This document shows positions 20,970 through 44,702 of a stretch of DNA of 64,000 nucleotides, one piece after another. The translations under genes were made by a program, and so were the position numbers. Within the stretch, counting starts at the first letter, position 1. The number at the start of each line of letters is the position of its first letter. Origin of the DNA: the human T2T-CHM13v2.0 reference genome, Homo sapiens; assembly GCF_009914755.1 (NCBI RefSeq), contig NC_060938.1; one strand, given 5' to 3'. A model generated the notes under the pieces. The model was not told the DNA's origin. It did no database searches and worked only from the letters and a program-made list of their open reading frames with translations.

Positions 20970-23900
20970 ATTTTATTTTATTTTATACTTTAAGTTCTAG
21001 GGTAAATGCGCACAACGTGCATATTTTTTACATATGTATACATGTGCCATGTTGGTGTGCTGCACCCATTAACTCGTCATTTACATTAGGTATATCTCCT
21101 AATGCTATCCCTCCCCACTCCCTGGTGTGTGTTGTTCCGCATACTGTGTCCAAGTGTTCTCGTTGAGTTCCCACCTATGAGTGAGAACATGTGGTGTTTG
21201 GTTTTCTGTCCTTGTGATAGTTTGCTCAGAATGACGGTTTCCAGCTTCATCCATGTCCCTGCAAAGGACATGAACTCATCCTTTTTTATGGCTGCATAGT
21301 ATTCCATGGTGTATATGTGCCACATTTTCTTAATCCAGTCTATCATTGATGGACATTTGGGTCAGTTCCAAGTCTTTGCTATTGTGAATAATGCCCCAAT
21401 AAACATACGTGTGCCTGTGTCTTTATAGCAGCATGATTTATAACCCTTTGGGTATATACCCAGTAATGGGATGGCTGGGTCAAATGGTATTTCTAGTTAT
21501 AGGTTCTTGAGGAATCGCCACATTGTCTTCCACAATGGTTGAACTAGTTTACAGTCCCACCAACAGTGTAAAAGTGTTCCTATTTCTCCACATCCTCTCC
21601 AGCACCTGTTGTTTCCTGACTTTTTAATGATCACCATTCTAACTGGTGTGAGATGGTATCTCATTGTGGTTTTGATTTGCATTTCTCTGATGGCCAGTGA
21701 TGATGAGCATTTTTTCATGTGTCTGTTGGCTGTGTAAATGTCTTCTTTTGAGAAGTGTCTGTTCATATCCTTTGCCCAGTTTTTGATGGGGTTGTTTGGT
21801 TTTTTCTTGTAAATTTGTTTAAGTTCTTTGTAGATTCTGGATATTAGCCCTTTGTCAGATGGGTAGATTACAAAAATTTTCTCCCATTCTGTAGGTTGCT
21901 TGTTCACTCTGGTGGTAGTTTCTTTTGCTGTGCAGAAGCTCTTTAGCTTAATTAGATCCCATTTGTCAATTTTGGCTTTTGTTGCCATTGTTTTTGGTGT
22001 TTTAATCATGAAGTCCTTGCCCATGCCTATGTCCTGAATGGTATTGCCTAGGTTTTCTTCTAGGGTTTTTATGGATTTAGTTCTAACATTTAAGTCTTTA
22101 ATCCAACTTGAATTAATTTTTGTATAAAGTGTAAGGAAGGGATCTAGTTTCAGCTTTCTACATATGGCTAGCCAGTTTTCCCAGCACCATTTATTAAATA
22201 GGGAATCCTTTCCCCATTCCTTGTTTTTGTGAGGTTTGTCAAAGATCAGATGGTTGTAGATGTGTGGTATTATTTCTAAGGGCTCTGTTCTGTTCCATTC
22301 GTCTATATCTCTGTTTTGGTAGAGTACCATACTGTTTTGGTTACTGTAGCCTTCTAGTATAGTTTGAAGTCAGGTAGTGTGATGCCTCCAGCTTTGTTGT
22401 TTTGGCTTAGAGTTGTCTTGGTAATGTGGGGTCCTTTTTGGTTCCATATGAACTTTAAAGTAGTTTTTTCCAATTCTGTGAAGAAAGTCATTGGTAGCTT
22501 GATCGGGATGGCATTGAATCTGTAAATTACCTTGGGCAGTATGGCCATTTTCACAATATTGATTCTTCCTATCCATGAGCATGGAATGTTCTTCCATTTG
22601 TTTGTGTCCTCTTTTATTTCATTGAGCAGTGGTTTGTAGTTCTCCTTGAAGAGGTCCTTCGCATCCCTTGTAAGTTTTATTCCTAGGTATTTTATTCTCT
22701 TTGAAGCAATTGTGAATGGGAGTTCACTCATGATTTCGCTCTCTGTTTGTCTGTTATTGGTGTATAGGAATGCTTGTGATTTTTGCACATTGCTTTTGTA
22801 TCCTGAGACTTTGCTGAAGTTGCTTATCAGCTTAAGGAGATTTTGGGTTGAGACGATGGGGTTTTCTAAATATACAATCATGTCATCTGCAAACAGGGAC
22901 AATTTGACTTCCTCTTTTCCTAACTGAATACCATTTATTTCTTTCTCCTGCCTGATTGCCCTGGCCAGAACTTCCAACACTATGTTGAATAGGAGTGGTG
23001 AGAGAGGGCATCCTTGTCTTGTGCCAGTTTTCAAAGGGAATGCTTCCAGTTTTTGCCCATCTAGTATGATATTGGCTGTGGGTTTGTCATAAATAGCTCT
23101 TATTATTTTGAGATACGTCCCATCAATATCTAGTTTATTAAGAGTTTTTAGCATGAAGGGCTGTTGAATTTGTCGAAGGCCTTTTCTGCATCTATTGAGA
23201 TAATCATGTGGTTTTTTGTCTTTGGTTCTGTTTATATGATGGATTATGTTTATTGATTTTCGTATGTTGAACCAGCCTTGCATCCCAGAGATGAAGCCCA
23301 CTTGATCATGGTGGATAAGCTTTTTTATGTGCTTCTGGATTCAGTTTGCCAGTAGTTTATTGAGGATTTTTGCATCAATGTTCATCAGGGATATTGGTCT
23401 AAAACTCTTTTTGTTGTGTCTCTGCCTGGCTTTGGTATTAGGATAATGCTGGCCTCATAAAATGAGTTAGGGAGGATTCCCTCTATTTCTATTGATTGGA
23501 ATATTTTCAGAAGGAATGGTACCAGTTCCTCTTTGCACCTCTGATAGAATTTGGCTGTGAATCTGTCAGGTCCTGGACTTTTTTTGATTGGTGGGCTAGT
23601 AATTATTGCCTCAATTTCAGAGCCTGTTATTGGTCTTTTCAGGGATTCAATTTCTTCCTGGTTTAGTCTTGGGAGGGTGTATGTGTCCAGGAAGTTTTAC
23701 ATTTCTTCTAGATTTTCTAGTTTATTTGCATGGAGGTGTTTATAGTATTCTCTGATGGTAGTTTGGATTTCTGTGGGATGGGTCATGATATCCCCTTTAT
23801 CATTTTTTATTGCATCTATTTGATTCTTCTCTCTTTTCTTTTCATCTCCTTTTTTTTGTTTGTTTGTTTTTATGAGATGGAGTCTCTCTCTGTTGCCCAG

Positions 23901-42000: not shown

Positions 42001-44702
42001 GCTCCTCGATTCATTGATCTTTTAAAGGGATTTTTGTGTCCCTATCTCCTTCAGTTCTGCTCTGATCTTAGTTATTTCTTGCCTTCCGCTAGCTTTTGAA
42101 TGTGTTTGCTCTTGTTTCTCTAGTTCTTTTAATTGTGATGTTAGGGTGTCAATTTTAGATCTTTCCTGCTTTCTCTTGTGGGCATTTAGTGCTATAAATT
42201 TCCCTCTACACACTGCTTTAAATGTGTCCCAGAGATTCTAGTATGTTGTGTCTTTGTTCTCACTGGTTTCAATGAACGTCTTTATTTCTGCCTTCATTTC
42301 ATTATATACCTGGTAGTCATTCAGGAGCAGGTTGCTCAGTTTTCATGTAGTTGAGTGGTTTTGAGTGAGTTTCTTAATCCTGAGTCCTAGTTTGATTGCA
42401 CTGTGGTCTGAGAGACAGTTTGTTATAATTTCTGTTCTTTTACATTTGCTGAGGAGTGCTTTACTTCCAACTATGTGGTCAATTTTCAAATAAGTGTGAT
42501 GTGGTGCTGAGAAGAATGTATATTCAGTTGATTTGGGGTGGAGAGCTCTGTAGATGTCTATTAGTTCTACTTGGTGCAGAGCTGAGTTCAATTCCTGGAT
42601 ATCCTTGTTAACTTTCTGTCTCGTTGATCTGTCTAATGTTGACAGTGGGGTGTTAAAGTCTCCCATTATTATTGTGTGGGAGTCTAAGTCTCTCTGTAGG
42701 TCTCTAAGGACTTGCTTTATGAATCTGGGTGCTCCTGTATTGGGTGCATATATATTTAGGATAGTTAGCTCTTCTTGTTGAATTGATCCCTTTACCATTA
42801 TGTCATGGCCTTCTTTGTCTCTTCTGATCTTTGTTGGTTTAATGTCTGTTTTATCAGAGACTAGGATTGCAACCCCTGCTTTTTTTTGTTTTCCATTTGC
42901 TTAGTAGATCTTCCTCCATCCCTTTATTTTGGGCCTATGTGTGTCTCTGCACATGAGATGGGTCTCCTGAATACAGCACACTGATGGGTCTTGACTGTAT
43001 CCAATTTGCCAGTCTGTGTCTTTTTATTGGAGCATTTAGCCCATTTACATTTAAGGTTAATATTGTTATGTGTGAATTTGATCCTGTCATTATGATGTTA
43101 GCTGGTTATTTTGCTCGTTAGTTGATGCAATTTCTTCCTAGCATCGATGGTCTTTACAATTTGGAATGTTTATGCAGTGGCTGCTACCAGTTTTTCCTTT
43201 CCATGTTTGGTGCTTCCTTCAGGAGCTCTTGTAAGGCAGGCCTGGTGGTGACAAAATCTCTCAGCATTTGCTTGTCTGTAAAGTATTTTATTTCTCCTTC
43301 ACTTTTGAAGCTTAGTTTAGCTGGATACAAAATTCTGGGTTGAAAATTCTTTTCTTTAAGCATGTTGAATATTGGACCCCACTCTCTTCTTGCTTGTAGA
43401 GTTTCCACCGAGGGATCAGCTGTTAGTCCGATGGGCTTCCCTTTGTGGGTAACTCGACCTTTCTCTTTGGCTGCCCTTCACATTTTTTCCTTCATTTCAA
43501 CTTTGGTGAATCTGACAATTATGTGTCTTGGAGTTGCTCTTCTCCAGGAGTATCTTTTTGGCATTCTCTGTATTTCCTGAATTTGAATGTTGGCCTGCCT
43601 TGCGAGGTTCGGGAAGTTCTCCTGGATAATATTCTGAAGAGTGTTTTCCAACTTGGTTCCATTCTCCCCGTCACCTTCAGGTACAGCAATCAGACATAGA
43701 TTTGGTCTTTTCACATAGTCCCATATTTCTTGGAGGGTTTGTTCATTTCTTCCTACTCTTTTTTTACTAAACTTCTCTTCCTGCTTCATTTCATTCATTT
43801 GATCTTCAATCACTGAAACCCTTTCTTCCAGTTGATTGAATCGGCTACTGAAGCTTGTGCATGCCTCACACACTTCTCATGCCATGGTTTTCAGCTCCAT
43901 CAGGTCTTTTAAGGTCTTCTCTATGCACTTTATTCTAGTTAGCCATTCATCTAATCTGTTTTCAGGGTTTTTAGCTTCTTTGCGTTGGGTTCAAACATCC
44001 TCATTTAGCTCGGAGAAGTTTGTTATTACCGATCTTCTAAAGCCTTCTTCTCTCAACTCGTCAAAGTCATTATCCATCCAGCTTTGTTCCATGCTGGAGA
44101 GGAGCTGCGTTCCTTTGGAGGGGAAGAGGCACTCTGATTTTTAGAATTTTCAGCTTTTCTGCTCTGGTTTCTCCCCATTTTGTGGTTTTATCTAGCTTTG
44201 GTCTTTGATGATGGTGATGTACAGATGGGGTTTTGGTGTGGATGTCCTTTCTGTTGGTTTGTTTTCCTTCTAACAGTCAGGACCCTCAGCTGCAGGTCTG
44301 TTGGAGTTTGCTGGAGGTCCACTCCAGACCCCGTTTGCCTGGGTATCACCAGCGGAGGCTGCACAACAGCAAATATTGCAGAACAGCAAATGTTGCTGTC
44401 TGATCATTCCTCTGGAAGCTTTGTCTCAGAGGGGCACCTGGCTGTATGAGGTGTCAGTCAGCCCCTACTGGGAGGTGACTTCCAGTTAGGCTACTTGGGG
44501 TCAGGGACCCACTGGAGGAGGCAGTCTGTCCATTCTCAGATCTTGAACTCCGTGCTGGGAGAACCACTACTCTCTTCAAAGCTGTCAGACAGGGACGTTT
44601 AAGTCTGCAGAAGTTTCTGCTGCCTTTTGTTCAGCTATACCCTGCCCCAGAGGTGGAGTCTACAGAGGCAGGTAGGCCTCATTGAGCTGCAGTGGGCTCC
44701 AC
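39060..44702 (-). mobile_element. Near-full-length L1PA (approx. L1PA5/6), truncated in the 5' UTR
   Basis: ORF1 and ORF2 fragments in the ORF track. 17-bp TSD ttggag(g/a)gatacttttc at 39043-39059 and 44703-44719. Confidence 0.97.

What the first reader, a model, noticed from the sequence alone, without database searches (positions are those of the whole stretch)
20970..44702. Two L1s with different TSDs share the same ORF2-killing mutations
Seen: both copies carry the same 2-bp loss near ORF2 codon ~32 (ttgactgtatccaat at ~25211 and ~42991) and the same TGG>TGA stop after NHSTT (24562-24564 and 42343-42345). They also share many variants that differ from the recalled consensus: RDIDEW, KPHKNK, INSSW, QKGP, GIKLT, VNKQP, GHDIM and ORF1 PRILYP. 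Yet each has its own TSD and unrelated flanks, and they differ by about 9 in 200 bases in one hand-compared block. Established: L1 proteins act mainly in cis, so a source with dead ORF2 rarely yields copies. Inference: ancient ~5.6-kb interlocus gene conversion between neighbouring L1s, or trans-mobilisation of a dead local copy.
Basis: partly seen in the sequence, partly recalled or inferred. Interest (0 to 1): 0.75.

Follow-up and report, generated by a model that had tools for sequence, protein, structure and literature searches.

The report
Neighbouring L1s homogenised over 5 kb
Two separately inserted, dead LINE-1 jumping-gene copies 12 kb apart share dozens of rare mutations along 5 kb, likely because one overwrote the other by gene conversion; this known process is here unusually long and can make dead copies look like parent and daughter.

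Summary
Confirmed. Copy A (20975-27402, full length, Alu inside) and copy B (39060-44702, 5'-truncated) are same-orientation L1s with their own TSDs and unrelated flanks, about 92.7% identical. They share the ORF2 2-bp loss, the ORF2 TGA and also an ORF1 TGA. Each lesion alone recurs genome-wide (about 660, 129 and 47 places); the 2-bp loss is a hotspot in about 7% of copies. The combination is private. A and B share 39 rare variants over B positions 12-5144 (6.0 per kb against a median of 0.24 in 549 pairs) and form the only long-stemmed cherry in two trees. Five multi-variant words occur in only 2-4 places, and the extra hits share nothing further. So there is no dispersed dead-source family. 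The shared changes look neutral. Best explanation (0.78): one near-whole-length non-allelic gene conversion, or an equivalent double unequal exchange, after about a fifth of their residence time, followed by shorter tracts. A trans-mobilised daughter landing next door is not excluded (0.08). This is a new, long example of a known process.

The parts
20975..27402 (-). L1 copy A, full length, primate L1PA type (L1PA5-like is a recalled label), both ORFs broken
20960..20974 (.). TSD of A, 3' copy
27403..27418 (.). TSD of A, 5' copy (one-base indel against the 3' copy)
23841..24154 (-). Alu inserted in A only (AluY-like by recalled diagnostics), 12-bp TSD at 23829-23840 and 24155-24166; B holds the empty site at 41935-41946
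39060..44702 (-). L1 copy B, lacking about the first 480 bases of the 5' UTR, both ORFs broken
39043..39059 (.). 17-bp TSD of B, 3' copy
44703..44719 (.). 17-bp TSD of B, 5' copy, at a TT/GAAA endonuclease-type site (motif recalled)
39559..44681 (-). stretch of B that shares rare variants with A (about 5.1 kb, 91% of B); matches about 21444-26901 in A
42626..43116 (-). least diverged part: identical runs of 216 and 180 bases, likely a later, shorter conversion; includes the 2-bp loss
25211..25225 (-). 2-bp loss near ORF2 codon 32 in A
42991..43005 (-). the same 2-bp loss in B
24562..24564 (-). ORF2 codon 250 TGA in A
42343..42345 (-). ORF2 codon 250 TGA in B
25696..25698 (-). ORF1 TGA (about codon 234) in A
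43478..43480 (-). the same ORF1 TGA in B

Best explanation
A and B are two separate L1 insertions of the same subfamily, and one likely overwrote about 5.1 kb of the other by non-allelic gene conversion (or an equivalent pair of unequal crossovers), probably followed by a few shorter conversions. Shown: separate TSDs, same subfamily, a private shared stem of neutral-looking mutations, no third carrier found. Inferred: both inserted by normal retrotransposition and decayed; after roughly a fifth of their residence time a break in one was repaired from the direct repeat 17.8 kb away, copying the donor's stops and frameshift; they then diverged again. The Alu entered A probably after the main exchange. 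Direction of transfer is not determined.
For: Own TSDs and unrelated flanks. A+B is the only long-stemmed cherry: stem 0.011 with support 0.997 in ORF1/EN (36 sequences) and 0.008 with support 0.984 in RT (26 sequences). 39 shared rare sites spread evenly (chi2 p=0.26). Stem 0.67%, tips 2.7% and 2.4% non-CpG. Shared changes are 19 nonsynonymous, 8 synonymous, 1 stop, like the private ones (78:27:5 and 60:32:7), so the stem decayed in the genome and was not a replicating lineage. No dispersed carriers: multi-variant words hit 3, 4, 2, 4 and 2 places including A and B; extra hits share only the searched sites or align at 66-68%. Patchiness that one retrotransposition would not give: shared sites lie in longer identical runs than in any of 1850 circular shifts; window dispersion is matched or exceeded by 1 of 75 control pairs; the 216-base identical run is the longest of 205 pairs. 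In simulations a single event reached the observed local depletion in 0.6% of runs, a whole-length event plus short tracts in 32%. The last 490 bases of B have no shared rare site, where about 3 are expected. Conversion between neighbouring repeats is established for Alu (PMC8230782, PMC6598467, passages) and seen between L1PA3 copies (PMC5829575, passages).
Against: The tract is about 20 times the 250-bp mean estimated for human non-allelic conversion (bioRxiv 10.1101/135152, passages). It reaches to within 22-30 bases of B's 5' junction, which a daughter copy would give automatically. Two patchiness tests were not significant (max-segment p=0.19; Spearman -0.45, p=0.10). Short tracts alone do not fit the even spread of shared sites (at most 6% of runs). 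No simulated model matched all four pattern statistics jointly (at most 0.7%; uniform mutation rate assumed). Both copies must have begun as the same subfamily (49 of 61 ladder sites old in both). No pre-conversion state could be seen without primate orthologs.
Confidence: 0.78

Rival explanations
1. B is a retrotransposed daughter of the already dead, full-length A: A's RNA was copied in trans by an active L1 and inserted 12 kb away; later short conversions added the patchiness.
For: A is full length and B is 5'-truncated with its own TSD and A-rich tail. Shared variants are evenly spread and start 22-30 bases from B's 5' end. It explains the shared subfamily without coincidence.
Against: Non-functional L1s are not efficiently rescued because of cis preference (PMC5605252, passage). 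Landing within about 20 kb of the parent has a chance near 1e-5 if insertion is genome-wide (own arithmetic). No other daughter was found with five words, including a 3' three-variant word. No shared rare site in the last 490 bases (thin panel of 6-8). B carries the younger state at 4 of 61 ladder sites where A has the older one.
Confidence: 0.08
2. RNA- or cDNA-templated repair: B already existed and a break in it was repaired from a reverse transcript of A's RNA, overwriting it nearly end to end.
For: It would give whole-length, even sharing up to the homology boundary and keep B's TSD. A retains its 5' UTR.
Against: No positive signature; it cannot be told from DNA-templated conversion in one genome, and DNA-templated conversion needs no extra assumption.
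Confidence: 0.06
3. Both come from a small, dispersed non-autonomous L1 side family, or the sharing is subfamily variants plus mutation hotspots.
For: Each lesion recurs (about 660, 129 and 47 places). Raw identity to some dispersed copies is as high. Exact-word searches miss diverged carriers, and only 100 of 129 and 100 of 660 places were listed.
Against: Among the listed places only A and B carry two lesions together. Panel copies share 0-2 of up to 35 private sites. Copies with the 2-bp loss are scattered along the whole subfamily ladder. Two words occur only in A and B in 3.1 Gb.
Confidence: 0.04
4. Tandem or segmental duplication of a block containing one L1.
For: Same orientation and close spacing.
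Against: Similarity ends exactly at B's ends, the flanks are unrelated and each copy has its own TSD.
Confidence: 0.01

Closest known systems
Non-allelic gene conversion between neighbouring Alu elements (as described in PMC8230782 and PMC6598467, passages; the primary paper PMC2950799 was not held)
   Same: Neighbouring, separately inserted repeats share non-diagnostic mutations; reported effect strongest within about 10 kb.
   Different: Here the repeats are 5.6-6.1 kb L1s, homologous positions are 17.8 kb apart and the shared stretch is about 5.1 kb.
Conversion between L1 copies (L1PA3 example and L1PA7-flanked inversion in PMC5829575, passages; Burton et al. 1991 seen only as a reference title in PMC5640379)
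   Same: One L1 tract replaced by a copy of a similar L1 tract through homologous recombination.
   Different: Those are present-day rearrangements seen in reads; this one is old (tips 2.4-2.7%) and near whole-element. Tract lengths of those cases were not seen.
Non-allelic conversion in gene duplicates (bioRxiv 10.1101/135152, passages)
   Same: Partial homogenisation while copies are young, then escape and independent divergence.
   Different: Mean tract 250 bp there; short tracts alone do not reproduce the even spread seen here.
Trans-mobilised, non-autonomous retrocopies (processed pseudogenes, Alu, SVA)
   Same: A TSD-flanked copy whose source need not encode working proteins.
   Different: Such copies disperse; no dispersed carrier was found and the only one lies 12 kb away.

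Membership tests
Primate L1 (L1PA) insertion by target-primed reverse transcription | TSD, A-rich 3' tail, 5' UTR-ORF1-ORF2-3' UTR layout | tested here: met
L1PA5 subfamily | match to the subfamily's diagnostic positions in a curated consensus | not testable with these tools
   No repeat library on hand; label is recalled. The tree places both below the younger rungs, including copies with the roughly 130-bp 5' UTR deletion.
Non-allelic gene conversion between repeats | two independently arisen loci (distinct TSDs and flanks) | tested here: met
Non-allelic gene conversion between repeats | excess of shared non-diagnostic variants confined to the pair | tested here: met
Non-allelic gene conversion between repeats | tract structure: patchy similarity and tract ends inside the homology | tested here: inconclusive
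   for; not significant; 3' boundary rests on about 3 expected sites with a panel of 6-8
Non-allelic gene conversion between repeats | orthologs in outgroups show the recipient's earlier state | not testable with these tools
   No other primate genome is held (one search says the genome has no relatives here).
Non-autonomous L1 side family mobilised in trans | dispersed copies sharing the inactivating and linked variants | tested here: not met
Segmental or tandem duplication | shared flanks and one TSD | tested here: not met

The most novel reading that the evidence does not exclude
A dead full-length L1 copied itself locally through its RNA, either as a trans-mobilised daughter 12 kb away or by cDNA-templated overwriting of its neighbour, and such local copying is general: the excess of neighbouring copies that share the ORF1 stop (6 further pairs within 150 kb, about 0.25 expected) would be its genome-wide trace.
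Probability: 0.1. Interest if true: 0.75.

Novelty: new member of a known kind. Interest (0 to 1): 0.36.

Why it matters
It is a clean, datable case of kilobase-scale exchange between two non-coding repeats. Such exchange breaks the assumption that each L1 copy decays independently, so it can mislead divergence dating, source-element inference and subfamily calls. It also marks the pair as a recombination substrate: a crossover between them would delete about 17.8 kb including BRD7P1 (inference). No function is implied. How often long L1 pairs are homogenised could be counted in T2T ape genomes. The recurrent 2-bp loss in about 7% of copies is a separate, unexplained lead.

Tried and rejected
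The DNA search with B scored 40 of 37,762 candidates and did not list A, so it was used only to gather a panel, not to rank relatives. That panel is biased towards copies like B and towards the 2-bp loss, and is thin (6-8) at the 3' end. Idea that the 2-bp loss marks a non-autonomous family: rejected, as carriers lie all along the ladder. Idea that neighbours sharing the ORF1 stop are further long-tract cases: all 6 other pairs within 150 kb were fetched (1.2-1.6 kb each) and share 0-4 further rare sites with identical runs of 24-90 bases, so no long tract. L007/L008 (70 kb apart) share the C form of the loss but no long tract. The codon table was out of frame and discarded; one search replaced it and covers only ORF1 to codon 132 and ORF2 to codon 1075. 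The dispersion null was inflated by a misaligned tail of L017 and redone. L043 was dropped as the same locus as L025, L047/L048 as too distant, L002 as rearranged, and loci that are A or B themselves were excluded. One search had a wrong spacer length and its zero says nothing, so the age profile of the 2-bp loss is untested. The shared site at B position 12 is alignment-doubtful and was left out of the run tests. Literature: searches found no paper on this pair, on BRD7P1, on multi-kilobase conversion between neighbouring human L1s or on the 2-bp hotspot; subscription journals are mostly missing, no supplements were read, and supplements of PMC5605252 or PMC5829575 may list such loci.

Full report
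Anatomy. Self-comparison of the window shows two minus-strand L1 copies aligned in two blocks at 92.6% and 92.8%, split by an Alu in one copy, with no similarity beyond the ends of the shorter copy. Copy A (20975-27402) is full length with a 15-16 base TSD. Copy B (39060-44702) lacks about the first 480 bases and has a 17-base TSD. The Alu in A has its own 12-base TSD and B holds the empty site. Both are therefore genuine, separate insertions, 11.7 kb apart end to end, with BRD7P1 between them (hub annotation).

The lesions. The 2-bp loss and the ORF2 TGA are at the stated places, and both copies also share an ORF1 TTA>TGA. None is rare alone. The word with the loss matches 660 places at up to 3 mismatches; the unbroken word matches 9261 at up to 2, so about 7%, with thresholds not identical. 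The exact form in A and B occurs in 13 places. The ORF2 TGA word occurs in 129 places and the ORF1 TGA word in 47. Among listed places (47 of 47, 100 of 129, 13 of 13, and 74 typed from the first 100 of 660) only A and B carry two lesions together. Of the 11 other exact carriers of the loss, none showed the TGA codon; one has TAG, one 81%-identical copy aligns ambiguously there and one does not reach the site.

Private relationship. Against a panel of about 40 dispersed copies, A and B share 39 rare states (36 non-CpG) between B positions 12 and 5144 of about 5640, spread evenly. On a stricter count they share 6.0 per kb; the median of 549 pairs of younger copies is 0.24 and the next pair has 2.5. 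Three pairs of much older copies score higher because they share old-subfamily states. Other copies share 0-2 of the private sites they cover. In both trees the copies hang singly from a subfamily ladder, and A+B is the one cherry of separate loci with a long stem. Raw identity does not show this: a dispersed copy is 93.5% identical to B. Five words that combine two or three shared variants were counted genome-wide: 3, 4, 2, 4 and 2 places including A and B, and the extra hits share nothing further. Exact words miss diverged carriers, but five negatives along the element make a dispersed family unlikely.

Nature and timing of the stem. Non-CpG stem 0.67%, tips 2.7% (A) and 2.4% (B), panel copies 2.5%; totals of 3.3% and 3.0% lie at or just above the top of the panel's 1.9-3.2%. 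Shared coding changes (19 nonsynonymous, 8 synonymous, 1 stop) resemble the private ones, as expected of decay in the genome. CpG decays agree in direction at 12 of 17 sites against 361 of 712 in controls. So one copy decayed for about a fifth of its history and was then copied. Both are the same subfamily: 49 of 61 non-CpG ladder sites are old in both, B is younger at 4 and A at 2. The label L1PA5-like is recalled; PMC9341517 (passage) calls L1PA5 mobile in the last macaque-human ancestor. An age of roughly 15-20 million years for the exchange rests on recalled calibration.

Mechanism. A daughter by retrotransposition predicts one uniform split. The data depart from that: shared sites lie in longer identical runs than in any of 1850 circular shifts, window dispersion is matched or exceeded by only 1 of 75 control pairs, and runs of 216 and 180 identical bases sit at B 1586-2077. 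Two other tests were not significant. Simulations with uniform mutation show that short tracts alone would clump the shared sites more than seen, that a single event rarely gives the local depletion (0.6%), and that a whole-length event plus short tracts is compatible with both of these measures; no model matched all statistics jointly. The whole-length event is most likely DNA-level conversion, or a double unequal crossover with the same product. Cis preference makes rescue of dead L1s inefficient (PMC5605252, passage), a landing site within 20 kb has a prior near 1e-5, and no other daughter was found. Weak further support: no shared rare site in the last 490 bases and four younger states kept in B. 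Against: the tract is long compared with the 250-bp mean (bioRxiv 10.1101/135152, passages) and reaches 22-30 bases from B's 5' junction.

Comparison with what is known. Conversion among neighbouring Alus (PMC8230782, PMC6598467; passages) and between L1PA3 copies (PMC5829575; passages) is described. My searches (listings and abstract starts) found nothing on this pair or on tracts of this length between neighbouring human L1s, but the library lacks most subscription papers and no supplements were read. It works like, and most likely is, non-allelic gene conversion; the defining ortholog test could not be run.

Side results. Carriers of the ORF1 stop cluster: 7 pairs within 150 kb including this one, about 0.25 expected (noticed after the fact; the ORF2 TGA list and the G form of the loss show no excess). 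The 6 other pairs share no long tract. This and the 2-bp hotspot remain unexplained.

Verdict. Observation confirmed; interpretation partly supported; new member of a known kind; interest 0.36.

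Noticed in passing
genome-wide; window examples 25211 and 42991: The same 2-bp loss near ORF2 codon 32 is present at about 660 places against 9261 unbroken ones, in copies from all rungs of the subfamily ladder: a strong recurrent frameshift hotspot of unknown cause, not found in print.
   Followed up: partly
L051-L056 and L059-L064 (G000 C2, C3, C5, C12): Copies with the ORF1 TTA>TGA stop include 6 further pairs within 150 kb (about 0.25 expected), yet each pair shares only 0-4 other rare sites; very short conversions or a local mutation process are possible.
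   Followed up: partly
L007 and L008 (G000 C9, 70 kb apart, opposite strands): Two copies from different ladder rungs both carry the rare C form of the 2-bp loss within a 63-base identical run; 5 of the 13 exact carriers are on C9.
   Followed up: partly
window 27836-28325 and 45573-45712: Further L1 3'-end fragments on the opposite strand, 81% and 84-86% identical to A and B; older, separate insertions.
   Followed up: no
window 5388-5822: A tandem duplication of about 217 bases at 91% identity, partly Alu-derived.
   Followed up: no
window 29501-30164: Two Alus head to tail, 83% identical to each other.
   Followed up: no
window 20975-44702: The direct repeat pair flanks BRD7P1; a crossover between A and B would delete or duplicate about 17.8 kb. 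No paper naming BRD7P1 was found.
   Followed up: no
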